From Planctomycetota bacterium (lineage in GTDB: Bacteria; Planctomycetota; UBA8108; SXIK01), in contig CBDCXR010000004.1 in assembly GCA_965223845.1 (NCBI GenBank), positions 2,592,001-2,656,000 on the forward strand: 64,000 nucleotides of DNA. Reading direction: 5' to 3'. The notes beneath the pieces are model-generated. The model worked only from the letters and a program-made list of their open reading frames with translations, did no database searches and had not been told where the DNA came from. Of this stretch, positions 923 through 28,946 are shown piece by piece; position 1 is the stretch's first letter, and every line of letters starts with the position of its first letter. Both the position numbers and the translations under genes were made by a program.

Positions 923-1561
923 ATGCAATCCGACTCCTCGCCCCAGACCGACGCCGCCGAACGCGAGGTCGTTCGGCGCGCGCTCGCCGGAGACCGCCGC
1001 GCGTTCGACGAGCTTCTCGAAAGCTACCGGCCGCGTCTCCGGCGCATGATCGAGCTCCGCATCAGCACGGAGCTGCGCGCCCGTGTGGACGCTTCCGATG
1101 TGATTCAGGAGACTTTTCTCGAGGCGTCCGAGCGGCTCGCGGATTACGCGACCCAGCCGAAGACGTCGTTCTTTCTTTGGGTGAGGTATCTCGCGCGCCA
1201 GCGCCTCGTGTCGCTCTATCGTCACCACGTCGACGTCAAGGCGCGGGACGCCAGGCGCGAGCTCTCGATCTACAATCGCCCCGGAGGATCGTCGGCCGGG
1301 ATCGCGAGTCGACTCGTGGGGAACTGGACGTCGCCCACGAAGGCGACGGAACGAGCCGAGATCACCCGCGTCGTCGAGGAGGCGCTCGAGGCGCTCGACC
1401 CGATCGATCGCGAGGTTCTCGTCCTCCGGCACTTCGAGCAGCTCTCCAATCGCGAGATCGCGGCGGAGCTCGATCTCGACGTCTCCGCTGCGAGCAAGCG
1501 ATACATCCGCGCCGTCGGTCGCCTTCGAACGGTGATCGAGCGTTTCGGCCTGCCGCAATGA
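923..1561 (+). CDS. ECF RNA polymerase sigma-70 factor, planctomycete type
   Basis: Region 2 (FDELLESYRPRLRRMI...VDASDVIQETFL...FFLWVRYLAR) and region 4 (LEALDPIDREVLVLRHFEQLSNREIAAELDL...SKRYIRA). Start trimmed to ATG 923; stop overlaps the kinase start (ATGA). Confidence 0.92.
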   Translation: MQSDSSPQTDAAEREVVRRALAGDRRAFDELLESYRPRLRRMIELRISTELRARVDASDVIQETFLEASERLADYATQPKTSFFLWVRYLARQRLVSLYRHHVDVKARDARRELSIYNRPGGSSAGIASRLVGNWTSPTKATERAEITRVVEEALEALDPIDREVLVLRHFEQLSNREIAAELDLDVSAASKRYIRAVGRLRTVIERFGLPQ

Positions 1562-4500
1562 ACCCGACCGACCACGCAGACGACCTCGACCCTTCGACGA
1601 TCGATCCCATCGACGCTCTCGCCGTCGAGTTTCTCGCGGCGGCTCGACGCGGTGAGGATCCATCGGTCGAAACCTACGCGGCCGCCCATCCGGGACTCGC
1701 GGAGCAGATTCACGAGCTCTTTCCGACTCTCCTCCTCCTCGAGGTGGCGGCGTCCGAATCGAAAGGTGAACCGCCGGCGGTGAGCGGACGAAGCGACTTT
1801 CCGGCGATCAGCGGATTCACGGTTCTGAGCGAAATCGGCCGCGGCGGCATGGGAGTCGTCTACGAAGCGGATGACCTCGCTCTCGACCGCCGCGTGGCGC
1901 TCAAGGTTCTGGAGGGCACGGGACGACTGTCGCCGGACCAAATTGAACGATTCCGCTCCGAAGCCCGCGCGGCCGCACGCCTCCACCACACGAACATCGT
2001 TCCCGTGTTCGAAGTGGGTGACGACGGCGGAGTGCTCTACTACTCGATGCAGCGGATCGGCGGACAGAGCCTCGACAAGATCATCGCGGAAGCGGCGAAG
2101 AACGCGGGCGAGCGAGACGGGGATCACCATCGCGCGCCTCGCAGCCCGGCGTACTTCGATGCGGTCGCGCGCATCGGGATCGACATCGCCTCGGCGCTCG
2201 CACACGCGCACAGCGCCGGAATTCTTCACCGCGACCTCAAGCCGTCGAACATCCTCGTCGATCAGCGCGCAAACGCCTGGTTGACGGATTTCGGTTTGGC
2301 GAAAGTCGCCGATGGCGCCGACCTCACGCGCTCGGGCGACGTGGTCGGGACACTTCGCTACCTGTCTCCCGAGCGACTCGACGGTAGGTCTTCTCCGGAA
2401 AGCGACATCTACGGACTCGGTCTCTCCCTCTACGAAATGCTCGCGCTACGACCGGCGTTCCCGTCGCGCGTGCGGATCGCACTGCTCGCCGAGATTTCCG
2501 AGTGCCGTCCCGCCCCGCTCGATCGGATCGAACCGCTCGTCCCGCGCGATCTCGCGACGATCGTTCACAAGTCGATCGCGCGGAATCCGAGGGATCGCTA
2601 TTCCTCCGGCGACGAATTCGCCGCCGATCTCCGCGCATTTCTCGAGCGCCGACCGATTCGCGCCCGACGCGTCGGTCTCGGCGAGCGTACGTGGCGCTGG
2701 TGCGAGCGGAATCCGGTGGTCGCAACGCTTTGCGCGTCGTCGGCGCTTCTTCTCGTCGCGCTCGCCGTCGTCGGATTCACGAGCGCCTCGCGGCTGCGCA
2801 GCTCTCTTCACGGGAGTCTCGTCAACGAGTCGCGCGCCTGGCGGCAGACCGGCGGCGCCGGTCACGCGATCCTCGCCCAAGCCGCGATCGTCGAGGCGGC
2901 GCAGATGGGATCTAGCGAAGGATTGCGGGACGAAGCGCTCTCGAGCGTATTCGCCGTCGACCTCCGACCGAGACGAGAGATCGCACGGCCGCCGCGTCTC
3001 GTCTCCACGTTCGACCGCGCGCTGTCGCGCTACTCGATTCCCGGCTCGCGCGCGATCGAGATTCGGGAGACGACACGAGACGAGGTCATCGACCGCTTCG
3101 AGCTCCCCGCGAGTCTGCGCACGTTCGATCTCGTGAAGCTGAGCGGAGGAGCGCGGTACACGGCCGTGCGCTCGGGGCTAGATGGTCCGCGCCGTCTGTG
3201 GATCTGGCACGCGGAGGCCAGCGACTGGCTCGGTCCGTGGCCCGTCGATCGCAGCTCCGACCCCATCGCCTTCTCCGCGGACGAGTCGCGGATCGCGGTG
3301 ATCGCATCGGACGGGACGATCGAAGTGCGGTCTCTGCCCGACGGGCGCGAGCTCACTCGGATCCGCCCGGGCACCCGTCCTCGAACGCTCGAGTTTTCGC
3401 CGGATGGAGCCGAGCTCGCATCCGCGGGACGACGCTCGCTCGCCGTCGAGATCCATCGCACCTCGTCGGGACAGCGCGTCGCTCGCCTTCACCACTCGGG
3501 GCGCCCCGCCGCGATGGCTTGGAATCCGCGTCGTCGAGAAATCGCGGTCGCGTGTTTCAACTTCGACGCTTTCATTTGGGACGTCGAGAGGAAGCGGCGG
3601 CGCTCGGTTCTGCGCGGACACCGGGCGGAGGTGCACTGTGTCGCCTACAGCGGAGACGGCGAGCTCCTCGCAACGTCGAGCTGGGACGGAACGACGCGCC
3701 TCTGGCGCGCGACGACGGGCGACCTTCTCGTGACTGCTCCCGGAACTCTCATCGCGTTCGCCGACGATGGCCGATCCCTAGCCGTCGAGGGCGCGCGCGC
3801 TCAGACAATCCTCTACGACGTGCACCGCGAGGATGGTGTCGAGCGCACCGCGTTCGAAATGGTCGACAAGGGGCCGGCGCAGGTCGCGTTCTCGCCGTGC
3901 GGCCGCTGGCTCGCCGCCGCCTGCGGCCGAGACCAGGCGTACGTCTGGCGTCACGGCGGGCGACCGCAGCTCCTTCCCGTCGGCCGCTGCGACCGGGTCG
4001 GATTCGGCCCCGCGGGCGACAGCCTCTACACCGCGGGATCGCGTCTCTATCGCTGGGCGATTCGCGAGGAGAAAAACTCGGCGGTGACGATCGGACCGCC
4101 CGAGCCCATAGCGTTCACCGGTCGCGATCTCGCCGTCGCGAGCGCCGGCGGCTGGATCGCCCGCCTCCAGGTCGATCGACTCGCCGTCGCGGACTGCCGG
4201 GACCCGGCGAGCCCACAAGTCGTCGGCGAGCACCCGGGAGCGTGGTTCCTCGCCGTTTCGCCGGACGGCCGCTGGGGCGCGACCGGAACGGGAACGGCGC
4301 GCGGAGTAAGGATCTGGGCGATCGCCCAGCGTGAACTCGCTCACGAAATCGAATCCACCCGCGCGGGAGTCACCTTCAGTCCGAGCGGACGCTGGCTCGT
4401 CGTCGGCGAGGGTGAGCTCTACTCGCTCGTCGAGACGGAGAGCGGAGAGAAGCTCTGGACGTTCGCGCGCACGACGGCGAACGATCGTCCCGGCCCGGCG

Positions 4501-5064
4501 GCCTTCGATCCGGGCGAACGAATCGTCGCGCTCGTCGAATCGCATCGCGACGTCGTCCTCATCGATCGCTCGTCCGGCGCGGTGCTCGCCCGACCCCAGC
4601 GAACCGATTCTGGCGATGTCACGTCACTCGAGTTCTCGAGCTCGGGGGATCGACTCGCGCTCTCGACCGAGGATCACGTCGTCGAGATCTGGGATCTCCG
4701 TCGCTTCGCCGACCGACTCTCCACTCTCGGTGTCGAGTGGCGCATCGAGTTCGCCGAGCCGCGCTCGAACGTCGAGGAACTGAGATCGCTGATCGTCTTG
4801 GCCGGCGCGCTCGCCGACAAACCCGCGGATTCGCCGATCGCCCGCACGGCCGAGACTCTGGCCGTCATCGACGCGCTGAGCGTCGCCCTCACGGCGAATC
4901 CCGCCGACGAGGCGCTCCTCGGACGCCGAGCGGCCGCGCTCGAGTCCTTGGGCTACCTCGACGACGCGCTCGTCGACGCGGAGAGGGCGCTCGAGCTCTC
5001 TCCCAACCGGGACAGCCTCACCGAGCTCCGGAGTCGAATTCTTCAGCGGATCGACGCGCGCTGA
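1558..5064 (+). CDS. Hanks-type Ser/Thr protein kinase with a TM helix, WD40 repeats and C-terminal TPR
   Basis: IGRGGMGVVY, VALKVL, HRDLKPSNIL, DFGLAK, GTLRYLSPE. Hydrophobic helix followed by WD40 repeats (LRGHRAEVHCVAYSGDGELLATSSWDGTTRLW) and a terminal TPR-like helix pair. Confidence 0.93.
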   Translation: MNPTDHADDLDPSTIDPIDALAVEFLAAARRGEDPSVETYAAAHPGLAEQIHELFPTLLLLEVAASESKGEPPAVSGRSDFPAISGFTVLSEIGRGGMGVVYEADDLALDRRVALKVLEGTGRLSPDQIERFRSEARAAARLHHTNIVPVFEVGDDGGVLYYSMQRIGGQSLDKIIAEAAKNAGERDGDHHRAPRSPAYFDAVARIGIDIASALAHAHSAGILHRDLKPSNILVDQRANAWLTDFGLAKVADGADLTRSGDVVGTLRYLSPERLDGRSSPESDIYGLGLSLYEMLALRPAFPSRVRIALLAEISECRPAPLDRIEPLVPRDLATIVHKSIARNPRDRYSSGDEFAADLRAFLERRPIRARRVGLGERTWRWCERNPVVATLCASSALLLVALAVVGFTSASRLRSSLHGSLVNESRAWRQTGGAGHAILAQAAIVEAAQMGSSEGLRDEALSSVFAVDLRPRREIARPPRLVSTFDRALSRYSIPGSRAIEIRETTRDEVIDRFELPASLRTFDLVKLSGGARYTAVRSGLDGPRRLWIWHAEASDWLGPWPVDRSSDPIAFSADESRIAVIASDGTIEVRSLPDGRELTRIRPGTRPRTLEFSPDGAELASAGRRSLAVEIHRTSSGQRVARLHHSGRPAAMAWNPRRREIAVACFNFDAFIWDVERKRRRSVLRGHRAEVHCVAYSGDGELLATSSWDGTTRLWRATTGDLLVTAPGTLIAFADDGRSLAVEGARAQTILYDVHREDGVERTAFEMVDKGPAQVAFSPCGRWLAAACGRDQAYVWRHGGRPQLLPVGRCDRVGFGPAGDSLYTAGSRLYRWAIREEKNSAVTIGPPEPIAFTGRDLAVASAGGWIARLQVDRLAVADCRDPASPQVVGEHPGAWFLAVSPDGRWGATGTGTARGVRIWAIAQRELAHEIESTRAGVTFSPSGRWLVVGEGELYSLVETESGEKLWTFARTTANDRPGPAAFDPGERIVALVESHRDVVLIDRSSGAVLARPQRTDSGDVTSLEFSSSGDRLALSTEDHVVEIWDLRRFADRLSTLGVEWRIEFAEPRSNVEELRSLIVLAGALADKPADSPIARTAETLAVIDALSVALTANPADEALLGRRAAALESLGYLDDALVDAERALELSPNRDSLTELRSRILQRIDAR

Positions 5065-5082
5065 TCGCGACGCAACCGCGAA

Positions 5083-6159
5083 TCAGCTCCCGGGACGCCG
5101 GCGGGTCGCGCTCCCCTCGGTCTTCTTCGGCGCGTCGTCTTCGACCGGCTTCTGCTCGAGGAGCTTCCCGGGATCGATCAGGACCGGCTTCTGACCGGGC
5201 CCGGGACTCTCCACCTTCGGTCCGGGGAGTCCCTCCGGGCGCTCGAAGAGCTCGTCCTCGAGACCGGCGTTGAACTGAACGCTCCGGTACCGTCGCTCGG
5301 TGTCGAGATCGCCGTCGCCGTAGATCTCCTGCAGCATCGAGAAGTTGATGGCGAGGCCGGAGTCATCCATGAAGGGGATCTTCTTGTAGCGCTTGAAGTA
5401 CTGCTCCCGCTTGATCGGCTTCGACGGATTGCGCGTCGTGTCGCGCCATTCTTTCTTGAGCAGCAGCCCGGTTTCGCGCGAGAAGAAGTAACGCTCGATC
5501 TGTCGCCCCGAGAAGTCGACGATCTTCACGATATCCGCGGACTCGATCTCCTCGCCGGTGTCGATCTCCGCTTCGCCTCCGAGCGTAGCGACGTAGCCGT
5601 CGTCCGCCCAGTGGCAGAAGAAGTCATCCATGTATTTCCCGTGGACGAAGACGAGGAGCGTGTTGCCATCGAGGCGATCCACTCGCCCCATCACTTGAAC
5701 CCATCCTTCTTCCGTCTCGTCGCTGTAGACCTGAACGAATGCGAGCTTCTGCCCCTCCTTGATCTCGTAATTGAGCTCCCACTCTTCGCGCAGGTTGTAG
5801 TCCCCCTTGATCATGAGCGTGATGTCCGCTCGCGCTTCGCTCGTCGGTTGGAAAATCGTGTTCGTATACGAAACCTTTCGGTCCGCGATCTTGTCGAGAA
5901 CCGGTCGACCGCCGATGGCGGTGAGATAGCGATCGATGACGGCGATCGCCTTCGGATCGCTCACGGGACTCGGCTTCCCGTCTTGACCGAAGATCAGAGT
6001 TCCGCCCGCGTCCGCGCCGCTCGCGGTGTCTTGAGCCGTTGCGGTCGGCGCCTGCTCCTGCGCCCCGATGAATCCGCCGGCGACCACCAGCGCCAGTCCG
6101 AACGCTCCGATCAACAGCCGCGCGTAAGCCGGCCCGAAGGGCACTTGCCGCATCTTCAT
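5083..6159 (-). CDS. Exported hypothetical protein, possibly LolA-like/lipoprotein-sorting fold
   Basis: N-terminal signal/TM segment; AVIDRYLTAIGG start and VQFNAGLEDELFERP end resemble LolA-like exported proteins. Start uncertain (6153/6159). Confidence 0.6.
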   Translation of the reverse strand: MKMRQVPFGPAYARLLIGAFGLALVVAGGFIGAQEQAPTATAQDTASGADAGGTLIFGQDGKPSPVSDPKAIAVIDRYLTAIGGRPVLDKIADRKVSYTNTIFQPTSEARADITLMIKGDYNLREEWELNYEIKEGQKLAFVQVYSDETEEGWVQVMGRVDRLDGNTLLVFVHGKYMDDFFCHWADDGYVATLGGEAEIDTGEEIESADIVKIVDFSGRQIERYFFSRETGLLLKKEWRDTTRNPSKPIKREQYFKRYKKIPFMDDSGLAINFSMLQEIYGDGDLDTERRYRSVQFNAGLEDELFERPEGLPGPKVESPGPGQKPVLIDPGKLLEQKPVEDDAPKKTEGSATRRRPGS

Positions 6160-6529
6160 CCTGCTCGAACTCCACTGCATGGTTGGAACGTCTACTGCGA
6201 TCCGGGCCCGAAGGGCCGGAATGGGAGATCACCGCGGAAGCCGACGCGCGTGACACGCGGATTCGGTTCGCTGCGGCAAGTCGCTTCTGGAGTACCCGGG
6301 TACGAAATCTTCTCGGGAACGATCCCGTTTTCGTCGTCGCGCGCGCCGCTCATCCCGAGGGCGACGCCGGTCCCGCGCCGCTTCGGGCTTCGGCTCACCG
6401 GACGGTGCGCTCACATCACCCGAATCCGTGCCTTTTATCACTCGAACGTCGCCCGCGCAAGCGGCAATCGCTCCCCAACCGGCGGACACGTACGGAGTTA
6501 CCGCAGCCGGAGCGCTCGGTCGGATCGGC

Positions 6530-7723
6530 TCAAAGTCCGGCTTCGCCGGATGGCGACGCAGTCTCGGAGACGGCGGGTACGGTTTCCGACGACCGCTCGG
6601 AGTAGACGAGACTCGACACCTTCGCGGCCGGGATCGGGCGGCGCGTGTGGAGAAACGAGAAGCCCTCGTCGTCGAGCCAAAGCCTGACCGTACTCGCTGG
6701 GACGAAGAGGCCCATGTGAGGAACGACGGTCGGCTGCCGCTTTCCATACGTGTAGATCATGCTCGATACGCCGATCAACTCGCTCCGCTCGGCGCAGAAG
6801 ACTCCGCCGCCCGAGTTTCCGAAGAACGTCGGTGCGTTCAGCATCCAGAAGTTCTGCGATCCGACGCGCTTCGTGCGGGACGAGATCTCGCCGAGAGTGG
6901 GAAGGGGGTGGTTCCCGAGCGGACAGCCGACGGCGTACGCCGGAGAGAAGACGTCGATCTCGCGCATGCGGTCGGGGTCGATCCAGCTCGCGACGAACGG
7001 GAATCGCTCGGTGGAGTTCAGCCGAAGCAGGGCGAGATCGCGCGCCTGATCGAAGAGCACCATGTCCGCGGACTCGGTGCGGAGGATGTCGCTTTCGGGA
7101 CGCGAGGCGATGTGGACCTCGTCGACGGTGCGGGCGTCAGCGCGGTCGCCGGTGACCTCGAGGACGACATGGTGCGCGGTGAGAATAAACGTCGTGTACG
7201 CCGGGATATCGCCCGGTCGCGAAATCGGCTGGAGCTCGCTGTAGACGATGACTCCGCTCCCGACCGTCCCGTTCCCGCGGAGCTGAACCGTCGGGAGAAT
7301 CATCCGCTCGCGCATCTCGCGCGCGTCACGGTCGAGCCGCGCGGACATGCGCTGGATCGCCGACGCCGCGCCGGCGAGGCGCTCGCACTCGGTCTCGAGT
7401 CCCTCGGAGATCGTCCGGTCGTAGCTTGCGAGTCGGTTCTCGATGAAGGTCGCCGTCGAGCGCTGGTTCGCGTCGAGGCGCGCAACCGTCTCGAGGATGG
7501 AATCCCGCTCGCCCCGAAGCTCACTCGCCGAGCGCTCGACGAGACCGCGGAGCTCGCGGTGCGTGTCGAGAGAATGCGCGTGAACGCGGGCGAGGTCGGA
7601 CTCGACCGACGCGCGCGGGCGAAGATCGAAGACGCCGTTCTGAAGCGCGAAGATCAGTGCCACAAGGACGATCAATTTGAGTGTCTCGACCGCACTTGCT
7701 CGGAGCCAGCGCTTCACTTTCAT
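6530..7723 (-). CDS. Membrane-anchored trypsin-like (S1) serine protease with coiled-coil stalk, no PDZ
   Basis: Triad motifs ILTAHHVV, DLALLRL, GNSGGGV; N-terminal TM; purine-rich RBS upstream. Confidence 0.88.
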   Translation of the reverse strand: MKVKRWLRASAVETLKLIVLVALIFALQNGVFDLRPRASVESDLARVHAHSLDTHRELRGLVERSASELRGERDSILETVARLDANQRSTATFIENRLASYDRTISEGLETECERLAGAASAIQRMSARLDRDAREMRERMILPTVQLRGNGTVGSGVIVYSELQPISRPGDIPAYTTFILTAHHVVLEVTGDRADARTVDEVHIASRPESDILRTESADMVLFDQARDLALLRLNSTERFPFVASWIDPDRMREIDVFSPAYAVGCPLGNHPLPTLGEISSRTKRVGSQNFWMLNAPTFFGNSGGGVFCAERSELIGVSSMIYTYGKRQPTVVPHMGLFVPASTVRLWLDDEGFSFLHTRRPIPAAKVSSLVYSERSSETVPAVSETASPSGEAGL

Positions 7724-8056
7724 CTCTACTTCCCTCGTCTGAGTCAGAGTGCGGTTCGACCGAAAACACCACCGTCGCTACCGCCCCTCACCTCTCCGAG
7801 CGAGCGGCAAGGTCGGGCTGAGAATACGATGCGCCGATGGCGCGTCGCAAACGGCGCCACCGAGAGCCGAAACGCGGTCGACCCTATAACGGTCGGCTCG
7901 CCGGGCCCGAGAGTCTCACTCGATTCCCGGGCGAAAGCGGTCGTTCCGAGAACTCGATGAGTCTTCGGAATGGTTTCCTCAGGAGATCGAGGCCGCGGAA
8001 CGGTGCTCGGGAGCTCTGCTCTAGCCGATGTCCGCGCCCCGGAGCGGCGTCGCTGC

Positions 8057-10933
8057 TTAGCTCTCGCCGGATGGGCGGTCGTCCGCCGGTCCGTCCGACT
8101 CGAGGACGATGTTGACGAGCCGCTGCGGAACGGCCACCACCTTGCGGATCCGGCGGGGCCCCACGATCTCGCGGATGATGTCTCGCTGGAGTGCGCTCGC
8201 TTCGAGCTTCTCCGCCTTCCAGTCGGCGGAGGTTTCCATGCGATCGCGGATCTTACCGTTCACCAACACCGGGACGACGACGTCGTCGGGTTGGACGAGC
8301 TCTTCGCTCGCCTGGGGCCACTCTTCATCCTCGACGCTCGACTCTTCCCCGAGCTTCTTCCACATCTCCTCGGCGAAATCGGGAACGAGCGGAGTGAGGA
8401 GGATGACGAGAGTCCGGAGCGCGGCGGAGTCCATCTCTTCGATCGTGGTCTCTTTCTGGCCGAGGAATCGGACGAAGTGACACACCGCCGCGATCGCCGT
8501 GTGGATCTGCAGCCGATCGAGACGACGACTCACGGAATCGATGAGTCGGTGCTTCGCGACGAGCATCCGCTGCGAGACGAACTTCCCGTGCTCGTGCCGC
8601 CGGAGGATCTCGCGCCGGACGCGATCGAGAAGCTTCCGCTTGTGGAAGACGCCATGCTCGTCGGCCGTTACGGGGCGGTGGAGTGCGCCGAGCGACAAGA
8701 CGTGCAGGCGAACCGCGTCCGCGCCGTACTTCCGGATCCACTCCATCCAGTCCGGCTCCTCTCCGGACGTGGAACGGACGCGAGCGATGCGCTGGTAGCG
8801 ATGGAACGGCTCGTACACGGGGCATTCGCCGAGGTCGTAGAGGATCTTCGCGATGAGTCGCACGGCGAGCAAATCGCGTGCGGTGAGCGAATCGGGGCCG
8901 AACGTCATGCTGATCGGAAGCGGCGCGAAGCCGTGCTCTTCGCTGAGAAAGGGATGGAGCTTCTTCGGTTCGTCCGCCGAGGGCGCGCGACGCCGATTCG
9001 CCCGGCGACGTCGATCCCGTCGCTCGCTGGCCGGCTCGTTCTCGGGCGCCGCGACCGACGTAGCGGTCTCGCTTCGTTCGGGTTCGACCTCCGCGCCATC
9101 GCCAGACCCCGGAGACTCCACCCGCGAAGGCTCGTCGCCATCGTCCGGTGGAGGCGGATCGTCCGGTGGCGACGGATCGTCCGGCCCTCTCGCGCCGCTC
9201 TCCGTCTCGCGCGAGGCATCGCCATCGTCGGGATTCTCGCGGTCTTCGCTCGAACGAGGTTCGCCCGGATCGTCCGCGTCTCCCACCGCGCCGTTCTCGT
9301 CACCGGGCGGCGATGCGGGTTCGGGGGCGGAGGTCGGATCCTTCGCCTCTTCGAGTTCCTCCGCGGCCTCGGGATGACTCTCCTCCTCCACCGCGCGCAG
9401 TTCGGGTTCACCTCCCGGTTCTCGACTCTCGGCAGAACCGTCCGTCTCGGCTTCGTCGTCGCACTGAAGGTCGGACTCGCCGCCGTCCGGCTCGCCCGAG
9501 AGGCGCGCGAACCCTTCGAGCTCGCCGTCGAGATGCGGCGACACCGCGCGCAGGAAGCTCCACGCGCGTCCGAGCCAAGGGAGGATCACTTGCCCGTCGA
9601 GCTCGGACGCCTCGCCGCACTGGGGACAAGGCGCGTGCGTGTCGGCGTCGGGGTCGGCCCGCCGAGGCAAGGCCGCGGTCGGCACCGGTACGGCACCACA
9701 GCGATCGCAGTGGATCACCGGGATCGGTGCACCGCGCGAAAACCTTCCCGACAGCGGTAGTCGACGAAAGCGAAAACGGGTGACGCGGCGGCAGATCCCG
9801 CGGCGACCGAGGAAGGCGATGATCCGATCGCGCCCCACTTTGACGGCGAGGCTCGTGAACGGTCCGGAGTTCGTCAGAACACCGTCGCCCGTCCAGGCTT
9901 CCGTGAGGCGGCTCGCGGAGTCGAACTTGGCGGCATCGTTGTGAATCACCTCGCGAATCGGGAGCCGCATCTCCTTCGCGAGACGGAAGAGCTCGGGATC
10001 GTGACCCGGAACACCCATCACGACCCCGTCGCTGTACGCGTTGTCCGCGAGCGGGCTCAATAGGATCGGGATGCGCTTGAGCGTCGCCGGATTGATCGCG
10101 AATCCGCCCGTGTGGGTCGCCGATCGTCGCGGGGCGTCGTGACGACGAAGGCGATCGCGATACTTCTCGACCTCGTCGGTGTACGCCCAATCGATGAGCT
10201 CGTCGGCGAGCGGGTTGAACGGACTGACGAGGAGAAACGTCGCCCCGTAGATCGCTTCGCACTGCGTCGTGAAAACGCGCAGCTCCGAGTATTCCGTCTC
10301 AAAGGGACGCGACACCGCAAACGTGATCTCGACGCCGCGCCGCCGCGTGAGGAACTGTCGCTGCCGCGTGCGAAGCTGCGGCGTCCAGCGCGCCTTGTCG
10401 ATGTCGCCGAGAAGGCGCTCGCCGAACGGCTCCGACCAGAGGTACCACCGGGACACGACGCGATCTTCGAACGTGCCGCCGCAGTGGGGACAGTCGAGGT
10501 AGCGGCCCGTGGGCGCCTCGAGCGCGCAGCTCGTACACACGCTTCGGTTCTGCGTGACGTAGCGCGCGAGTCCACGCTCGAGGAGCTGGATGAAGACCCA
10601 CTGCGAAAGCCGGTAGTACGGGGGCGCCGAGGTATCGAAGATGTCGCTCGGTGGCGTGAGTCGAAGCGAAGCGATGAGTTCGGTGAGAAAGCGACGGCCA
10701 CCGTCTTCGTCACCCCCGCTCTCGGCGCCGCCTTCCGCCTCGCGCCCGTCGGCGAACCCGTCGCTCGCCTGGACTAGGAACACCTCGCGCCCGCGGAGAC
10801 GCTGGAAGCGGACCCAGACGTCGGTCGCGAACCAGCGGCGGATGAGATCGCCGTCGAGTTTCCCCGCCCCTTCGCTCCGGGGAACGGGCCAGGCGAAAAC
10901 GGAATGTCTCCCCTTCGGTGAACTGCTCGGCAT
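8057..10933 (-). CDS. Leucyl-tRNA synthetase-like protein with degenerate catalytic and editing motifs (probable pseudoenzyme)
   Basis: Colinear with bacterial LeuRS along its length (YYRLSQWVFIQL, VFTT..YGATF, AINP, GAPIPVIHC, KILYDLG, KYGADAVRL, LLTPLVPDFAEEMW, VLVNGKIRD, KVVAVPQRLVNIV), but no HIGH or KMSKS. GAGGAG RBS; uninterrupted 958 aa. Confidence 0.88.
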   Translation of the reverse strand: MPSSSPKGRHSVFAWPVPRSEGAGKLDGDLIRRWFATDVWVRFQRLRGREVFLVQASDGFADGREAEGGAESGGDEDGGRRFLTELIASLRLTPPSDIFDTSAPPYYRLSQWVFIQLLERGLARYVTQNRSVCTSCALEAPTGRYLDCPHCGGTFEDRVVSRWYLWSEPFGERLLGDIDKARWTPQLRTRQRQFLTRRRGVEITFAVSRPFETEYSELRVFTTQCEAIYGATFLLVSPFNPLADELIDWAYTDEVEKYRDRLRRHDAPRRSATHTGGFAINPATLKRIPILLSPLADNAYSDGVVMGVPGHDPELFRLAKEMRLPIREVIHNDAAKFDSASRLTEAWTGDGVLTNSGPFTSLAVKVGRDRIIAFLGRRGICRRVTRFRFRRLPLSGRFSRGAPIPVIHCDRCGAVPVPTAALPRRADPDADTHAPCPQCGEASELDGQVILPWLGRAWSFLRAVSPHLDGELEGFARLSGEPDGGESDLQCDDEAETDGSAESREPGGEPELRAVEEESHPEAAEELEEAKDPTSAPEPASPPGDENGAVGDADDPGEPRSSEDRENPDDGDASRETESGARGPDDPSPPDDPPPPDDGDEPSRVESPGSGDGAEVEPERSETATSVAAPENEPASERRDRRRRANRRRAPSADEPKKLHPFLSEEHGFAPLPISMTFGPDSLTARDLLAVRLIAKILYDLGECPVYEPFHRYQRIARVRSTSGEEPDWMEWIRKYGADAVRLHVLSLGALHRPVTADEHGVFHKRKLLDRVRREILRRHEHGKFVSQRMLVAKHRLIDSVSRRLDRLQIHTAIAAVCHFVRFLGQKETTIEEMDSAALRTLVILLTPLVPDFAEEMWKKLGEESSVEDEEWPQASEELVQPDDVVVPVLVNGKIRDRMETSADWKAEKLEASALQRDIIREIVGPRRIRKVVAVPQRLVNIVLESDGPADDRPSGES

Positions 10934-11097
10934 CGCTCCTCGAAATCCGGGGCCCGGCGATCGCCCGACCGGCTTGAAACGCGGCGGGGAATGCGTGTAG
11001 GGCCTTGCCCCATCGGCACTTCCACCTAGTCGGCGGCGCGGGAATGGAAGGGGCGAAGATATAGCGGAAGGAGAGGGTGTTCAATGCAAAAACAACC

Positions 11098-11125
11098 TTG
11101 ACAGCTAGACGGCGTCCTCTATGAT
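11098..11125 (+). promoter_or_regulatory. Sigma70-type promoter of tRNA-Ala
   Basis: TTGACA-N16-TATGAT about 70 nt upstream of the tRNA. Confidence 0.7.
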
Positions 11126-11195
11126 TCCTATCCCTAAAGCCGGACGCAGAACGCCTTTACCGCGTCTCGCCCCGCCCGGATCACCGGCCCGATGA

Positions 11196-11271
<76 letters not shown>

Positions 11272-11285
11272 CCGACGGACGAACG

Positions 11286-11314
11286 AGAGCGAGCCTCGAG
11301 CTCGCTCTTTTTTT
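11286..11314 (+). terminator. Intrinsic terminator after tRNA-Ala
   Basis: AGAGCGAGC-ctcga-GCTCGCTCT followed by a T-tract. Confidence 0.85.
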
Positions 11315-11405
11315 GTTCGATCGGTCGCGTTGGTGGCGATTCGAATTGCGACGCCGCACGCCACCGTCCCTCACCGTACGTGCGGCTGGATCTGGGGAGT
11401 TCCCG

Positions 11406-13667
11406 ATGGTTCTAAAGTTCTCGCTGCACGCCGCGCTGGTCTCGCTCGTCTGGGCGCTGAGCTCGCTCGGCGCGCTCGCTTCGCCACCCGGAGACGGTCC
11501 GGACATTTCCTTTCTCCCCGTTCTCGATTCCTCCTCGTCGGCGCCGGCCGCGGTCGATTACCTCGTCGCGAAGCCGGCGCGACGCGCCGAGGTGTTTCGG
11601 AGCGAAGACGGCCGCGAACTCATCCTGACGAACGGACTCGTCCGGAGAGTCTGGCGCGTACGCCCGGCGGTCGCCTGCGTCGCTTTCGACGAGCTCCGAT
11701 CGAGCCGATCGATTCTCCGCGCGGTCCGACCGGAGGCGCGCCTCATCATCGACGGTGAAACGGCGACGATCGGCGGACTGGCGGGGCAAGTCAACCACGC
11801 CTATCTCACGCCGGAGGGACTCGACGCCCTCAAACTCGACCCGAGCGCGTACCGCTGCGTTCGCATCTCGGTTGGTGAGCCTCGGCCGCGATTCCCGTGG
11901 CGACGCGTCCGTCACCACGCACCGAACGCGGCCTGGCCTCCGCCGGGAGCCTCGCTTCGCTTCGATTTCGTTCCCCCCGAAGACAACACGGCGCTCGCCG
12001 GTGTCGTGGTCTCGGTCCACTACGAGCTCTACGACGGCGTGCCCGTTCTCAGCAAATGGCTCCGCGTATCCAACGGCACGGAACATGCGATCGATGTCGA
12101 TCGGTTCACCCTCGAGATTCTGGCCGTCGTCGAACACGACAATCCGGTCGAGCTCCGCGCAGGAGTGGATCCGCTCCCGCCGGATTCACTCCACGTCGAG
12201 ACGGACTACGCGTTCGGCGGGTTCACCCACCGGAACGCGGCGCGCTTCAGCGTGAGCTGGCGTGCGGATCCGGCGTATCACACGCAGGTCAACTGGGCGA
12301 AGCAGACGCCCTGCCTCCTCGTCGTCGAGCCGACGCGCGGACCGGATCAAACGGTGCCGCCCGGCGAGGTGTTCGAATCGTTCCGCGCCTTCGAGCTCGT
12401 GCACGACTCAAGCGAGCGGGAACGCCGCGGCCTCGCGTTGCGCCGCATGTACCGCACGATCGCGCCGTGGGTCACCGAGAACCCGCTGATTCTCCACGTC
12501 GTGAGCACGGACCCAGACATCGTGCGGCGCGCGATCGACCAAGCGGCGGAGTGCGGGTTCGAGATGGTGAGCCTGAGCTTCGGAAGCGGGCTCAACATGG
12601 AAGACGGATCGGACGAGAACCTCGAGAAGTTTCGCGCTCTCTCCGCGTACGCGGCGGAGCGCGGAATCCATCTCGGAGGGTATTCCCTCCTGTCGAGTCG
12701 ACGCGTGAAGCCCGACGGTGACAACTGCATCCATCCCGAGACCGGAAAGCCCGGCGGACAGACACACGGCTACTGTCCCGCACTCGCCTCGGCCTGGGGA
12801 CAGAGCTACCTGAAGAAGCTCCGCGCGTTTTACGAACGGACCGGGTTTCTTCAGTTCACACACGACGGATCGTACCCCGGCGACTTCGACGCCGCGGCGC
12901 GGCCACCGCTTCAGAAGGGCCTCGACGACTCCCAGTGGGTTCAGTGGCGCGAGATCACGAGCTTCTATCGCTGGCTTCGGTCTCGAGGAGTGTATCTCCG
13001 CGTCCCCGATTACTATTTTCTGAGTGGAAGCAACGAATGCGGTATGGGCTACCGCGAAGTGAACTGGTCCCTCCCGCGCGATCAGCAAGTCATCCACACA
13101 AGGCAGAACATCTTCGACGGAACCTGGGAGAAAACGCCGTCGATGGGCTGGATGTTCGTTCCGCTCACGCAGTACCACGGCGGCGGCGCGGCGGCGACGA
13201 TCGAGCCTCTCGATCAACACATCGAGCACTACGAGCGAATGCTCACGAGCAACCTCGGACTCGGTGTGCAGGCGGTCTACCGCGGGCACCGTCTGTACGA
13301 CACTGATCGCGTGCGCGATCTCGTGACGCGCTGGGTCGCTTGGTACAAGGAGCACCGGTCGATCCTCGAGTCCGATCTCGTCCACGGGCGGCGCGCTGAC
13401 GGTCGTGACCTCGACTGGATGCTCCACGTCGGGCCCGATCTCGAGACGAAGGGGATGCTCGTCGTCTACAACCCGCTGCCGAAGCCACGTCGGCGGACGA
13501 TTTCCGTGCCGCTCTACTACACCGGGATCGCGGAGAAAGCGCGCATCACATCGGATCTCGGCGACGAGACCGATCACGCGCTCGACCGCACGCACCGCGT
13601 CGCACTCGACGTCGAAGTTCCCGCGCGCGCCATGCGCTGGTTCGCCATCCGGAGCGCCGACGAGTGA
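11406..13667 (+). CDS. Secreted putative glycoside hydrolase (alpha-galactosidase-like TIM barrel)
   Basis: Signal peptide; motifs APWVTENP, GFEMVSLSFGSG, HDGSYPGD, MGYREVNWSLPR, QYHGGG match a family I recall being annotated alpha-galactosidase in PVC/Bacteroidota. Substrate unverified. Confidence 0.65.
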   Translation: MVLKFSLHAALVSLVWALSSLGALASPPGDGPDISFLPVLDSSSSAPAAVDYLVAKPARRAEVFRSEDGRELILTNGLVRRVWRVRPAVACVAFDELRSSRSILRAVRPEARLIIDGETATIGGLAGQVNHAYLTPEGLDALKLDPSAYRCVRISVGEPRPRFPWRRVRHHAPNAAWPPPGASLRFDFVPPEDNTALAGVVVSVHYELYDGVPVLSKWLRVSNGTEHAIDVDRFTLEILAVVEHDNPVELRAGVDPLPPDSLHVETDYAFGGFTHRNAARFSVSWRADPAYHTQVNWAKQTPCLLVVEPTRGPDQTVPPGEVFESFRAFELVHDSSERERRGLALRRMYRTIAPWVTENPLILHVVSTDPDIVRRAIDQAAECGFEMVSLSFGSGLNMEDGSDENLEKFRALSAYAAERGIHLGGYSLLSSRRVKPDGDNCIHPETGKPGGQTHGYCPALASAWGQSYLKKLRAFYERTGFLQFTHDGSYPGDFDAAARPPLQKGLDDSQWVQWREITSFYRWLRSRGVYLRVPDYYFLSGSNECGMGYREVNWSLPRDQQVIHTRQNIFDGTWEKTPSMGWMFVPLTQYHGGGAAATIEPLDQHIEHYERMLTSNLGLGVQAVYRGHRLYDTDRVRDLVTRWVAWYKEHRSILESDLVHGRRADGRDLDWMLHVGPDLETKGMLVVYNPLPKPRRRTISVPLYYTGIAEKARITSDLGDETDHALDRTHRVALDVEVPARAMRWFAIRSADE

Positions 13668-14308: not shown

Positions 14309-15787
14309 CTACGCGAGAATCGATTCGATCACGCTCCCGTGTACGTCGGTGAGTCGGCGGTCGATCCCGTTGTGGCGCACGGAGAGTCGAGTGTGATCGA
14401 TTCCGAGAAGGTGGAGCACGGTCGCGTGGAGGTCGTAACTCCAAATCGGCTCGCGCGCCTTCCACCCCCACTCGTCGCTCTCCCCGTGCGCGACGCCACC
14501 GCGAACTCCACCGCCGGCGAGCCAAGTGACAAACGTTCCCGCGTTGTGGTCGCGTCCGGCTTGCCCCTGGCTGAACGGCATCCGGCCGAACTCGGTCGTC
14601 CAGATGACGAGAGTATCGTCGAAGAGCCCGCGGCTCTTCAGGTCTTCTAGGAGCCCTGCGATCGGACGATCCGTCTGGGCCGCCATGCGCGGAAGCTCGC
14701 CCCGGATGTTCGCGTGATTGTCCCAGTTGTCCTTCGGACCACCCGCGCCGCTCCACACCTGGACGAAGCGGACTCCGCGCTCGACCATCCTTCGCGCAAG
14801 AAGGCAGCGAAGGCCGAAGTCGCGCGTGGGGTCCGAGTCGATGCCGTAAAGGCGGCGCGTCGCGCGTGTCTCGCGCGAGAGATCGAAGAGCTCCGGTGCG
14901 GCGAGCTGCATTCGCGCGGCGAGCTCGTAGGACTCGAGGCGGGCAGCGAGTCCGGGATGATGCGGAGCGGCGTGCAAGCGTCGTTCGTCGAGCCAGCGAA
15001 GCAGCGCTCGACCGTCGCGCTCGCTCGCCGGGGTGATGAACTCCGCGCCGGGCGGCGGACGCAGGAAGGGAATCGGTTCCTTCTCCGCGTTCGAGATCAC
15101 CGTAGCTTGGTGCTCCGCACCCAGAAACGCGGCGGAGAAGTTGCCGCGATTGTTGTAGGGGAGACCGCGTGCGTCGGGGAGCGCGACGAACGCCGGCAGA
15201 TTCTCGTTCGGGTCACCGAGCGCGTAGGAAATCCAGGCTCCAACACAAGGGAATCCCGGCTCCGTGAAGCCGGTATTCTGCATGTAGCTCGCGAGGCCGT
15301 GGACGTTCGACTTCGACGCCATCGAAAGGAGAAACGCGATGTCGTCGACCTGCGTCGCGACGTGCGGGAACACTTCGCTCACCCACCGGCCACACTCGCC
15401 CCGGCGACGGAACTCAAAGGGACTCTTCAAGACCTTGAATCCCGGGGAGCCGGTCACCGACTCGAGCTGCGCGTTCGCGCCGGGATCGAACCGTCGGCCG
15501 TGGAGCTCCGCGAGGCGCGGCTTGTAGTCGAACGTGTCCATCGGACTCGCGCCGCCGTTCATGAAGAGCTGGATCACACGGCGGACGCGAGGGCGATGAT
15601 GGACCGTTCGTCCAGAGGCCTCCCCTGATCGCGCGACCGCGCGAGACGCTCCGATCGCCGGCGCGCGTCCAAAGAGCGCGGCGACGACGAGCTGCCCGAA
15701 CCCGCCGCCCGCTCCGAGCAGAATGTCTCGCCGCGCAACCGCTCGAGCGCGGCTTGTTTCGACTCTGGTTGGAGGGGCGATGGACAT
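14309..15787 (-). CDS. DUF1501 domain protein (Tat-like signal)
   Basis: RRDILL signal, VIQLFMNGGASPMDTFDYKP, LLARRMVERGVRFVQ, WDNH, EFGRMP, GRDHN, RLTDVHG. Confidence 0.92.
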   Translation of the reverse strand: MSIAPPTRVETSRARAVARRDILLGAGGGFGQLVVAALFGRAPAIGASRAVARSGEASGRTVHHRPRVRRVIQLFMNGGASPMDTFDYKPRLAELHGRRFDPGANAQLESVTGSPGFKVLKSPFEFRRRGECGRWVSEVFPHVATQVDDIAFLLSMASKSNVHGLASYMQNTGFTEPGFPCVGAWISYALGDPNENLPAFVALPDARGLPYNNRGNFSAAFLGAEHQATVISNAEKEPIPFLRPPPGAEFITPASERDGRALLRWLDERRLHAAPHHPGLAARLESYELAARMQLAAPELFDLSRETRATRRLYGIDSDPTRDFGLRCLLARRMVERGVRFVQVWSGAGGPKDNWDNHANIRGELPRMAAQTDRPIAGLLEDLKSRGLFDDTLVIWTTEFGRMPFSQGQAGRDHNAGTFVTWLAGGGVRGGVAHGESDEWGWKAREPIWSYDLHATVLHLLGIDHTRLSVRHNGIDRRLTDVHGSVIESILA

Positions 15788-28862: not shown

Positions 28863-28946
28863 TGCCTCGGGTGGGAATCGAACCCACACTCCCGTAAGGG
28901 AACGAGATTTTGAATCTCGCGCGTCTGCCAATTCCGCCACCGAGGC
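28863..28946 (-). tRNA. tRNA-Leu(CAA)
   Basis: Reverse complement GCCTCGGTGGCGGAATTGGCAGACGCGCGAGATTCAAAATCTCG...GGTTCGATTCCCACCCGAGGCA; long variable arm, A73, CCA not encoded. TAGAAT -10 box at 28971-28976. Confidence 0.96.

What the first reader, a model, noticed from the sequence alone, without database searches (positions are those of the whole stretch)
8057..10933. Full-length, apparently catalytically dead LeuRS paralogue: candidate tRNA-binding pseudoenzyme
Seen: an intact 958-aa ORF with a strong RBS follows LeuRS end to end, yet each aminoacylation motif is eroded. PYPSG-LHxGH reads PVPRSEGAGKLDGDL (10844-10855); GWDAFG reads ASDGFA; RDWxxSRQRYWG reads RRLPLSGRFSRG; YIGGxEHA reads TFGPDSLT; the KMSKS loop is missing (RIARVRSTSGEEPD, ~8745-8790). 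Both Zn-knuckle pairs (CTSC/CPHC, CDRC/CPQC), the anticodon helical domain and the C-terminal VNGKxR domain are well kept. Known: HIGH and KMSKS are required for adenylate formation in class I synthetases, and aminoacylation-deficient LeuRS paralogues are described in archaea (e.g. Sulfolobales LeuRS-I). Inference: loss confined to catalytic residues, without frameshifts, suggests selection for a non-canonical tRNA/RNA-binding or scaffold role. I do not know of such a bacterial family.
Basis: partly seen in the sequence, partly recalled or inferred. Interest (0 to 1): 0.88.

Follow-up and report, generated by a model that had tools for sequence, protein, structure and literature searches.

The report
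Conserved dead leucyl-tRNA synthetase paralogue
This is an intact second copy of the leucine tRNA-charging enzyme that has lost its catalytic motifs yet is kept, beside a normal copy, in nearly every genome searched of one class of Planctomycetota, so it probably does a different, still unknown job.

Summary
Window 8057-10933 (-) is an intact 958-aa bacterial-type LeuRS paralogue. HIGH, GWDAFG, RDW..RQRYWG and GGxEHA are eroded. The KMSKS loop and leucine-specific domain are deleted.

The conserved editing Asp and T252 are also replaced. A 176-aa acidic disordered insert sits in the Rossmann fold.

A canonical leuS with all motifs lies 1.1 Mb away. The paralogue is not decaying:
- Paralogue-type hits occur in 40 of 41 genomes of its class and in none of 143 other genomes sampled from the phylum.
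- No copy has an internal stop.
- dN/dS is 0.19-0.30 overall and 0.06-0.22 in the CP1 domain.
- The model matches LeuRS-tRNA structures.
- The locus is conserved in 13 of 13 relatives with enough flank: tRNA-Ala(GGC), paralogue, membrane-anchored trypsin-like protease, LolA-like exported protein.

Families f4 and f6 carry a less eroded form, which suggests stepwise loss.

A pseudo-synthetase under selection is well supported. A tRNA-binding mechanism is only inferred. Six literature searches found no bacterial equivalent. The nearest parallels are archaeal LeuRS-I and LeuRS2. I rate it a new variant of a known kind.

The parts
8057..10933 (-). Pseudo-LeuRS gene (958 aa, P0001), a full-length bacterial-type LeuRS paralogue
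   Evidence: ORF and translation. Pfam and NCBIfam. PDB sequence match to 1h3n at 8e-71. AF2 model and Foldseek hits to LeuRS.
10844..10855 (-). Position of the HIGH motif, which reads DGDL (residues 27-30)
   Evidence: Alignment to T. thermophilus LeuRS and to the own canonical LeuRS. Lost in all paralogues aligned there that cover this region.
9794..10351 (-). CP1 (editing-type) domain, residues 195-380. T-rich region TTRPDT reads TTQCEA (residues 222-227). Editing Asp reads L315.
   Evidence: PF13603 at 194-374. Motif columns. Numbering. 186 aa without indels in 18 of 18 family members. Lowest dN/dS of all parts.
8966..9493 (-). Acidic intrinsically disordered insert, residues 481-656 (E/P/D-rich, net charge -39)
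   Evidence: pLDDT below 50 for 481-656. Composition and charge. Same position, 128-203 aa and net charge -24 to -54 in 18 of 18 members.
8738..8803 (-). Site where the KMSKS loop and leucine-specific domain are deleted (residues 711-732)
   Evidence: query 711 to 732 spans T. thermophilus 569 to 651; the KMSKS columns are gaps or unrelated residues in the order-level paralogues.
8096..8653 (-). Anticodon-binding-type helical domain and C-terminal (VNGKxR) domain, residues 761-946
   Evidence: PF08264 at 791-909. pLDDT 85-97. 119-120 aa and 66 aa in 18 of 18 members.
11196..11271 (+). tRNA-Ala(GGC) gene, divergent from the paralogue, with its own sigma70-like promoter and terminator
   Evidence: ARAGORN. 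Rfam tRNA at 66.9 bits. Promoter at 11098-11125 and terminator at 11285-11309. Adjacent to the paralogue in 13 of 13 testable relatives.
6530..7723 (-). Membrane-anchored trypsin-like serine protease (397 aa, P0122), first conserved downstream gene
   Evidence: Trypsin_2 at 1e-14. An N-terminal hydrophobic helix and His/Asp/Ser motifs are visible. Syntenic in 13 of 13 relatives.
5083..6180 (-). Exported protein with no Pfam family (365 aa, P0121), a LolA-like lead; second conserved downstream gene
   Evidence: No Pfam match. Atlas features 0.95 to 'outer membrane lipoprotein-sorting protein family' clusters, a lead only. Syntenic in 13 of 13 relatives. Same phyletic pattern as the paralogue.
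7821..7831 (-). Short motif CATCGTATTCT about 100 nt upstream of the protease start
   Evidence: Seen in 5 of 6 aligned intergenic regions. One exact copy in the window and 5 in the 7.9-Mb genome.

Best explanation
The gene encodes a pseudo-synthetase. It is a bacterial-type LeuRS paralogue that keeps the whole LeuRS architecture: both Rossmann halves, CP1, the helical domain and the C-terminal domain. By its motifs it should no longer make leucyl-adenylate, charge tRNA, or carry out canonical post-transfer editing. A separate canonical LeuRS with all motifs serves translation.

The paralogue belongs to an old family found throughout one class of Planctomycetota. It is held under purifying selection and sits in a fixed locus: tRNA-Ala(GGC), paralogue, membrane-anchored trypsin-like protease, LolA-like exported protein.

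The most likely mode of action is non-catalytic binding of tRNA, most plausibly a tRNA-Leu-like L-shape and its CCA end. Binding would use the retained tRNA-embracing modules, with the remodelled CP1 pocket as the main functional surface. The conserved polyanionic disordered insert would act as a modulator or mimic.

Shown: the motif losses, fold retention, presence of a canonical copy, family distribution, selection and synteny.
Inferred: loss of the three activities, the tRNA binding, the role of CP1 and the role of the acidic insert.

I put about 0.9 on 'conserved, selected, catalytically dead paralogue' and about 0.4 on 'acts by binding tRNA'. The single confidence figure of 0.5 is for the whole statement.
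For: Dead synthetic site:
- HIGH, GWDAFG, RDW..RQRYWG and GGxEHA are replaced and KMSKS plus the leucine-specific domain are deleted in P0001 and in the order-level homologues aligned: 13 loci plus 17 proteins, of which P0014 and P0015 do not cover the HIGH region.
- There is no PF00133 match, and TIGR00396 scores 281 bits against a 548.4 cut-off.

Dead editing site: the conserved Asp aligns to L/F/Q and T252 is mostly replaced (A/R/M, T in a few) in the order-level homologues aligned; the class-level ones also lack the Asp.

Canonical copy: it lies at C4:1484398-1487475, scores 890.8 bits, and keeps HVGH, KMGKS, TTRPDT and AHDERD. It is only 23-27% identical to the paralogue.

Fold: AF2 pLDDT is 85-97 in the folded parts. 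The top 49 Foldseek PDB hits are bacterial LeuRS, many in tRNA complexes (2bte_A, 4aq7_A with TM 0.71 on the target).

Selection:
- No copy has an internal stop.
- NG86 dN/dS is 0.19-0.30 for 6 paralogue pairs, against 0.05-0.13 for 4 canonical pairs.
- By part: CP1 0.06-0.22, C-terminal half 0.10-0.16, N-terminal Rossmann 0.20-0.29, insert 0.28-0.36.
- CP1, the helical domain and the C-terminal domain have no or almost no length change in 18 of 18 members.

Distribution:
- Paralogue-type hits occur in 40 of 41 class genomes at least 85% complete.
- None occurs in 143 genomes from the rest of the phylum.
- There are 16 full-profile representatives at 859 bits or more among 1.84 billion cluster representatives.

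Locus:
- Paralogue, protease and LolA-like gene lie in the same order and strand in 13 of 13 relatives with enough flank.
- tRNA-Ala(GGC) lies directly upstream in 13 of 13 testable relatives.

Orthology of the forms: all paralogues lie on one side of a 100* branch from all canonical LeuRS, and they share the same synteny.
Against: - No binding, expression or activity data exist. No RNA run was listed.
- The folded domains are near neutral in net charge (-1 to +4), so there is no compositional sign of a strongly basic RNA-binding surface.
- The KMSKS loop, the leucine-specific domain and, in family f2, both Zn modules are missing. To my recollection these contact the tRNA acceptor end in real LeuRS.
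- The conserved neighbours look like envelope proteins (N-terminal hydrophobic anchors). A cytoplasmic tRNA binder does not explain that link.
- All domain-wise dN/dS pairs come from one genus and share sequences, so they are not independent. Pairs across families are saturated.
- Both trees are quick searches. The long paralogue branches could be grouped by long-branch attraction.
Confidence: 0.5

Rival explanations
1. The CP1 domain has a new function. The remodelled editing pocket is an active enzyme or a ligand sensor for a substrate that needs no free alpha-amino group, for example an N-blocked or non-amino acyl group on a tRNA 3' end, or a small molecule. The rest of the LeuRS body only positions the substrate.
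For: CP1 is the most constrained part, with dN/dS 0.06-0.10 in 4 of 5 pairs and 0.22 in the fifth. It has no indel in 18 of 18 members. Several pocket-region residues are invariant in the family (T222, E226 in place of D251, P309, H311), and new invariant stretches such as IREVIH..AKFD appear. The Asp that binds the alpha-amino group is consistently a hydrophobic residue or Gln.
Against: No catalytic residue set can be named. The invariant residues may be structural. The class-level forms have a different T-rich sequence (TRxLES), so the pocket is not uniform across the family. No ligand or substrate is suggested by the neighbours.
Confidence: 0.2
2. The protein is a scaffold or regulator unrelated to RNA. 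The LeuRS fold and the acidic disordered insert serve as protein-binding surfaces in a class-specific module with the neighbouring protease and LolA-like protein, or with other partners.
For: Gene order with the protease and the LolA-like gene is fixed in 13 of 13 relatives. P0121 homologues were found only in genomes that also carry the paralogue (7 of 151 sampled, none of 143 outside the class). The insert carries short conserved motifs in subsets of the family: PEDxDxF in 14 of 39 and RRxPxDEP in 6 of 39.
Against: The neighbours carry N-terminal hydrophobic anchors and look extracytoplasmic, while the paralogue has no signal sequence. Direct contact is therefore unlikely. Intergenic gaps are 70-470 bp, with one predicted overlap, and a conserved motif upstream of the protease suggests a promoter of its own. 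The co-absence in G021 could be a single missing contig. The single-sequence search for P0121 may miss distant relatives.
Confidence: 0.15
3. It is still an active LeuRS, or another aminoacyl ligase, that uses non-canonical residues.
For: The Rossmann fold is modelled with confidence. Some class I enzymes tolerate variant HIGH motifs: HVGN occurs in the canonical-looking P0037 and P0059.
Against: The five synthetic-site motifs are all lost and the KMSKS loop is physically deleted. A canonical LeuRS is present in the same genome. TIGR00396 scores far below its cut-off.
Confidence: 0.03
4. It is a decaying duplicate with no function.
For: It evolves faster than the canonical gene (dN/dS 0.19-0.30 against 0.05-0.13). 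Erosion is progressive across families.
Against: The reading frame is intact in every copy examined, and the apparent splits in G010 and G019 are runs of N. Paralogue-type hits occur in 40 of 41 class genomes. dN/dS is well below 1, and three domains have no indels.
Confidence: 0.02

Closest known systems
Canonical bacterial leucyl-tRNA synthetase (TIGR00396; structures 1h3n, 2bte, 4aq7)
   Same: Domain order and fold match (Foldseek E 1e-49, target TM 0.61-0.75). Many structural motifs are kept, including TQWIFL, WG.P.P..HC, NSG and VNGKxR.
   Different: HIGH, KMSKS with the leucine-specific domain, three further synthetic-site motifs and the editing Asp are lost. A 176-aa acidic disordered insert is present. 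The score is below the family cut-off. Identity to the genome's own LeuRS is 23-27%.
LeuRS-I of Sulfolobaceae (Weitzel et al. 2020; seen only as described in passages of the review PMC9437257)
   Same: It is an extra LeuRS copy beside a functional one. It cannot aminoacylate, has a disrupted CP1 editing domain and an unusually acidic segment, and is proposed to act outside translation in a tRNA-dependent way.
   Different: LeuRS-I is archaeal-type and, by that review, still makes leucyl-adenylate and binds tRNA-Leu. Here the adenylation motifs are gone, the enzyme is bacterial-type, the acidic part is an internal disordered insert and not the C-terminal domain, and no biochemistry exists.
LeuRS2 of Halobacteria (Natrialba magadii NmLeuRS2; PMC4005665 abstract; review passage)
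   Same: It is a second LeuRS of unclear role that coexists with a main enzyme.
   Different: NmLeuRS2 is active, though weaker, and keeps its catalytic function. The planctomycete protein has lost the motifs.
HisZ, the HisRS paralogue that works with ATP phosphoribosyltransferase in histidine biosynthesis (listed in Table 1 of PMC9437257; its regulatory, non-charging role is recalled)
   Same: It is the best-known bacterial case of an aaRS paralogue that has lost aminoacylation and is kept for another role.
   Different: HisZ is class II, has a known partner (HisG) and sits in a histidine biosynthesis context. No partner or pathway is known here.

Membership tests
Bacterial leucine--tRNA ligase (TIGR00396, EC 6.1.1.4) | Whole-protein score over the curated cut-off of the equivalog model | tested here: not met
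   281.1 bits against a 548.4 cut-off. The canonical copy in the same genome reaches 890.8 bits.
Bacterial leucine--tRNA ligase (TIGR00396, EC 6.1.1.4) | Class I signature motifs HIGH and KMSKS | tested here: not met
   HIGH aligns to DGDL. The KMSKS loop is deleted.
Bacterial leucine--tRNA ligase (TIGR00396, EC 6.1.1.4) | LeuRS fold with CP1 inserted in the bacterial position, a helical anticodon-binding-type domain and a C-terminal domain | tested here: met
   Pfam PF13603 and PF08264. AF2 model. The top 49 Foldseek PDB hits are bacterial LeuRS.
Bacterial leucine--tRNA ligase (TIGR00396, EC 6.1.1.4) | CP1 editing site with the T-rich region including T252 and the conserved Asp (E. coli D345, T. 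thermophilus D347; residue names recalled, numbering consistent) | tested here: not met
   TTRPDT aligns to TTQCEA. The Asp aligns to L315.
Bacterial leucine--tRNA ligase (TIGR00396, EC 6.1.1.4) | Leucine activation and tRNA-Leu charging activity | not testable with these tools
   This needs ATP-PPi exchange and aminoacylation assays.
Sulfolobaceae-type LeuRS-I | Archaeal-type LeuRS that still forms leucyl-adenylate but cannot transfer it (as described in PMC9437257) | tested here: not met
   The protein scores far better on the bacterial model (TIGR00396 1.8e-83) than on the archaeal one (TIGR00395 1.7e-19). The adenylation motifs are lost.
Free-standing or trans-acting editing factors derived from aaRS editing domains | Intact hydrolytic editing site | tested here: not met
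   The editing Asp and T252 are replaced. The protein is full length and not a free-standing domain.
Anti-phage defence systems (PADLOC-DB) | Match to a defence protein model | tested here: not met
   No match for P0001 or P0121. P0122 gives only weak matches that cover its trypsin-like region.
Planctomycete pseudo-LeuRS family defined here (P0001-P0018, P0123-P0132 and orthologues) | Loss of HIGH and KMSKS, loss of the editing Asp, an acidic disordered insert, and the locus tRNA-Ala(GGC) / paralogue / protease / LolA-like gene | tested here: met

The most novel reading that the evidence does not exclude
The dead LeuRS is the cytoplasmic reader of a class-specific system that couples tRNA to the cell envelope. 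Its remodelled CP1 pocket no longer needs a free alpha-amino group. It would sense or act on the state of a tRNA 3' end (Leu- or Ala-accepting). Through this it would control the adjacent membrane-anchored protease and LolA-like pair, with which it shares locus and phyletic distribution.
Probability: 0.1. Interest if true: 0.85.

Novelty: new variant of a known kind. Interest (0 to 1): 0.64.

Why it matters
Paralogues of tRNA synthetases that have given up charging are a known route to new functions, as with HisZ and LeuRS-I. A 2022 review of duplicated synthetases lists only two archaeal cases for LeuRS and no LeuRS-derived paralogue function (PMC9437257, passages).

This family would be a bacterial example with several useful properties:
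- It is old and nearly universal in one class.
- It has lost the motifs of both active sites.
- It shows stepwise erosion across families, so the order of losses can be studied.
- It has a fixed genomic context that offers testable partners.
- Two genomes that carry it are nearly closed assemblies of 4 contigs and 1 contig. If these derive from cultured strains, which no call tested, binding assays and knock-outs would be feasible.

Tried and rejected
Positional-orthologue idea. I asked whether the paralogue sits at the ancestral leuS locus and a second LeuRS took over. No protease or LolA-like homologue lies within about 8 kb of the canonical leuS in 14 of 14 loci, 10 outside the class and 4 inside. 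The class's canonical LeuRS groups with that of other Planctomycetota families at 100*. Not supported.

Split-gene idea (Aquifex-like alpha/beta LeuRS). The two-ORF appearance in G010 and G019 is caused by runs of N in the low-complexity insert. Rejected.

Group I intron splicing cofactor (as recalled for yeast mitochondrial LeuRS). RF00028 gives no match in the genome, which is 91.7% complete. No support.

tRNA-like or known RNA leader that the protein might bind. The Rfam E-value scan of 4800-11400 found only the tRNA-Ala and two weak chance-level hits beside it. The intergenic alignment shows only the short CATCGTATYCT motif.

Defence system. No PADLOC match for P0001.

Subfunctionalisation. 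The canonical LeuRS keeps the editing motifs and the C-terminal domain, so nothing obvious is left for the paralogue to supply.

Expression. No RNA holder was listed.

Short linear motifs in the insert occur only in subsets: 14 of 39 and 6 of 39.

dN/dS for class-level pairs could not be computed because of saturation.

The origin of the paralogue, ancient duplication or transfer, could not be resolved. No AU test was run.

Complex prediction was not used. I claim no specific protein pair, and the neighbours look extracytoplasmic.

Supplementary files of papers were not consulted. Tables in the supplements of PMC5388404 could list LeuRS paralogues by genome.
Full report
1. The observation.

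Window 8057-10933 (-) is one open frame of 958 codons. ATG 10933 is the first possible start in the frame, and no N-terminal extension is encoded upstream. A GAGGAG lies 2 nt before it.

Pfam recognises only the LeuRS editing domain (PF13603, residues 194-374, 1.2e-29) and the class I anticodon-binding domain (PF08264, 2.6e-13). It does not recognise the catalytic family PF00133. The bacterial LeuRS equivalog model scores 281 bits against a cut-off of 548.4. The best solved relative by sequence is T. thermophilus LeuRS (1h3n, 8e-71).

Residue by residue, against that enzyme and against the genome's own canonical LeuRS:
- HMGH aligns to DGDL (residues 27-30, nt 10844-10855).
- GWDAFG aligns to SDGFA.
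- RDWLFSRQRYWG aligns to RRLPLSGRFSRG.
- GGAEHA aligns to GPDSLT.
- About 80 residues holding the leucine-specific domain and the KMSKS loop are replaced by about 20 residues (711-732).

First, the CP1 editing site is eroded. TTRPDT reads TTQCEA, and the Asp in HDxRD reads L315. By the numbering that Asp is T. thermophilus D347, which I recall as the universally conserved editing Asp. Second, residues 481-656 are an E/P/D-rich segment of net charge -39, which the structure model leaves disordered.

2. A canonical LeuRS is present.

The same genome has 7.93 Mb in 4 contigs and is 91.7% complete. It holds a LeuRS at C4:1484398-1487475 that scores 890.8 bits and carries HVGH, GFDAFG, RDWLFSRQRYWG, GGAEHA, KMGKS, TTRPDT and AHDERD. 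It is 23-27% identical to the paralogue.

3. It is a family, not an accident.

A search of 5.8 billion clusters returns 17 proteins at 483-796 bits. All lack PF00133, and some are annotated only as 'class I tRNA ligase family protein' from Planctomycetota. Scores then drop sharply to 305 bits, where ordinary LeuRS begins.

A profile of these 18 sequences, run against 1.84 billion representatives, gives 16 full-profile members at 859 bits or more.

In whole genomes, paralogue-type hits occur in 40 of the 41 genomes of the window's class that are at least 85% complete. Only G021 has the canonical gene alone. I judged this by score pattern. Motif columns were checked for the window plus 18 other genomes.

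In a sample of 143 genomes from the rest of the phylum, no paralogue-type hit appeared. The best C-terminal-half score listed there is 211 bits, against 263-301 bits for class-level paralogues. Nearly all of these genomes show one or two matches, as a single locus would give. I did not inspect each of them, and 152 low-scoring matches were not listed.

No copy has an internal stop. The two apparent splits, in G010 and G019, are runs of N inside the low-complexity insert.

4. Stepwise erosion.

In the window's order (families f1-f3) the synthetic-site motifs and the editing Asp are gone in every homologue aligned, and T252 is replaced in most.

In families f4 and f6 of the same class the orthologue has lost HIGH (it reads STHGFSVNQ), KMSKS and the editing Asp. 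It still has GWDSFG, RDWxFxRQRYWG and GGIEHA. Its acidic low-complexity insert sits near the N-terminus instead.

In family f5 the copy is the most diverged.

These forms are orthologous by position, since they share the same flanking genes (section 6). In two quick maximum-likelihood trees all paralogues lie on one side of a 100* branch from every canonical LeuRS. That canonical set includes this class, other Planctomycetota and other phyla. Long-branch attraction cannot be excluded. Whether the origin was duplication or transfer is unresolved.

5. Selection and structure.

NG86 dN/dS is 0.19-0.30 for six paralogue pairs with unsaturated or moderately saturated dS. It is 0.05-0.13 for four canonical pairs.

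Split by part, in five pairs that all come from one genus and share sequences:
- CP1: 0.06-0.10 in four pairs and 0.22 in one.
- C-terminal half: 0.10-0.16.
- N-terminal Rossmann part: 0.20-0.29.
- Insert: 0.28-0.36.

Across 18 family members, CP1 is 186 aa in all, the helical domain is 119-120 aa and the C-terminal domain is 66 aa. The insert varies from 128 to 203 aa but is always strongly acidic, at -24 to -54.

The AF2 model, built from an 18-sequence alignment, has pLDDT 85-97 in the folded parts. Its first 49 Foldseek PDB matches are bacterial LeuRS at about 20% identity, and many are tRNA complexes.

6. Context.

The paralogue is followed on the same strand by two genes.
- The first is a 397-aa protein with an N-terminal hydrophobic helix, a long helical region and a trypsin-like domain. 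His, Asp and Ser motifs are visible.
- The second is a 365-aa protein with an N-terminal hydrophobic segment and no Pfam family. Language-model features point to 'outer membrane lipoprotein-sorting protein' clusters, which is a lead only.

Order and strand are the same in 13 of 13 relatives with enough flank, covering families f1-f6. Gaps are 70-470 bp, with one predicted overlap.

Directly upstream lies a tRNA-Ala(GGC) gene. It has its own sigma70-like promoter and terminator and a normal G3:U70 pair, read. The same tRNA gene is adjacent in 13 of 13 testable relatives, divergent in most of them and co-directional in at least one, L052.

Homologues of the 365-aa protein were found in 7 of 151 sampled genomes. 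These are exactly the sampled genomes that carry the paralogue. They were not found in G021 or in the 143 genomes outside the class. The genes are adjacent, so the G021 co-absence could be a single missing contig. A single-sequence search may also miss distant relatives.

7. What it most likely does.

Well supported is a conserved, selected LeuRS paralogue that lacks the motifs needed to activate leucine, charge tRNA or edit in the canonical way. How it works is inferred.

The parts that are kept and most constrained are the CP1 domain, the helical domain and the C-terminal domain. By my recollection of the LeuRS-tRNA complexes that top the fold search, these are the parts that hold the tRNA body, elbow and CCA end.

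The pocket change removes the residue that anchors the alpha-amino group. It keeps T222/T223, an acidic residue at the D251 position, and the P..H of the AHD motif. That fits a reader of a tRNA 3' end better than a hydrolase.

The conserved polyanionic insert could mimic nucleic acid or recruit basic partners.

I therefore favour non-catalytic tRNA binding. Rivals are a new CP1-centred activity, a protein scaffold tied to the envelope genes, a residual enzyme and a relic.

Against the favoured reading:
- The folded domains are not basic overall.
- By my recollection, several elements that contact the acceptor end are deleted.
- The link to extracytoplasmic-looking neighbours is unexplained.

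8. Comparison with what is known.

Six full-text searches found no paper describing a bacterial LeuRS-derived pseudoenzyme or a planctomycete LeuRS paralogue. What I saw of each paper:
- A survey of more than 2500 prokaryotic genomes calls LeuRS one of the most stable families (PMC5388404, passages).
- A 2022 review lists only Sulfolobaceae LeuRS-I and halobacterial LeuRS2 as LeuRS duplicates, with no LeuRS-derived paralogue function (PMC9437257, passages).
- The AARS Online paper lists only LeuRS-A and LeuRS-B (PMC11580382, passages).
- For NmLeuRS2 I read the abstract (PMC4005665).
- The primary LeuRS-I paper (Weitzel et al. 2020) was not seen.

The family works like an aaRS-derived pseudoenzyme, with LeuRS-I the nearest parallel. 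It fails the membership tests for LeuRS proper and for LeuRS-I.

9. Verdict.

I rate it a new variant of a known kind, with interest 0.64.

Noticed in passing
window 11196-11271 (+), with 11098-11125 and 11285-11309: A normal tRNA-Ala(GGC) gene with a near-consensus sigma70-type promoter (TTGACA-16-TATGAT) and an intrinsic terminator. Its adjacency to the dead LeuRS is conserved across the whole class. The listed 818-aa ORF at 11211-13667 (+) overlaps it, so its start is probably spurious.
   Followed up: partly
window 7821-7831 (-): The motif CATCGTATTCT lies about 100 nt upstream of the protease start. It is present in 5 of 6 aligned relatives and only 5 times in the 7.9-Mb genome. It may be a locus-specific promoter or operator; the CGTA core recalls ECF-sigma -10 elements (from memory).
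   Followed up: partly
L051, L052, L054, L080, L081; window 28863-28946 (-) (converted from C4:2620863-2620946): A tRNA-Leu(CAA) gene lies about 4 kb beyond the tRNA-Ala in 5 relatives. In the window it is about 18 kb away, so other genes appear to have been inserted between them.
   Followed up: no
genome C4:1643846-1643919 (-), C4:6791124-6791203 (+), C4:7438635-7438732 (-), C4:467861-467950 (+): ARAGORN calls two tRNAs with a CUA anticodon (labelled Pyl), one tRNA-SeC, and an unusually long 90-nt tRNA-Ala(GGC) elsewhere in the genome.
   Followed up: no
proteins P0133, P0198, P0205: Three other LeuRS-like proteins of about 800-830 aa from metagenomes have lost the KMSKS motif. P0133 and P0198 have also lost HIGH, while P0205 carries an HLGN variant. 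All three keep most other motifs, and P0133 and P0198 keep the editing Asp. They have no acidic insert. Partially eroded LeuRS paralogues may have arisen more than once.
   Followed up: partly
window 1177-5064 (+): A 1295-aa Ser/Thr protein kinase fused to WD40 repeats lies convergent with the conserved cluster. It found no match in the 10 relatives' flanks compared.
   Followed up: no
window 14309-15787 (-) and 15805-18684 (-): A DUF1501 gene next to a PSCyt2/PSD1 (DUF1549/DUF1553) gene, a pairing I recall as common in Planctomycetota.
   Followed up: no
L001/L067 (G000:C4:1484398-1487475) and L042-L046: The canonical LeuRS of this order is unusually long, about 1000-1025 aa against about 800-850 in most bacteria, and carries extra inserts. 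In family f5 the canonical LeuRS (L038) groups with a different LeuRS type found in other phyla.
   Followed up: partly
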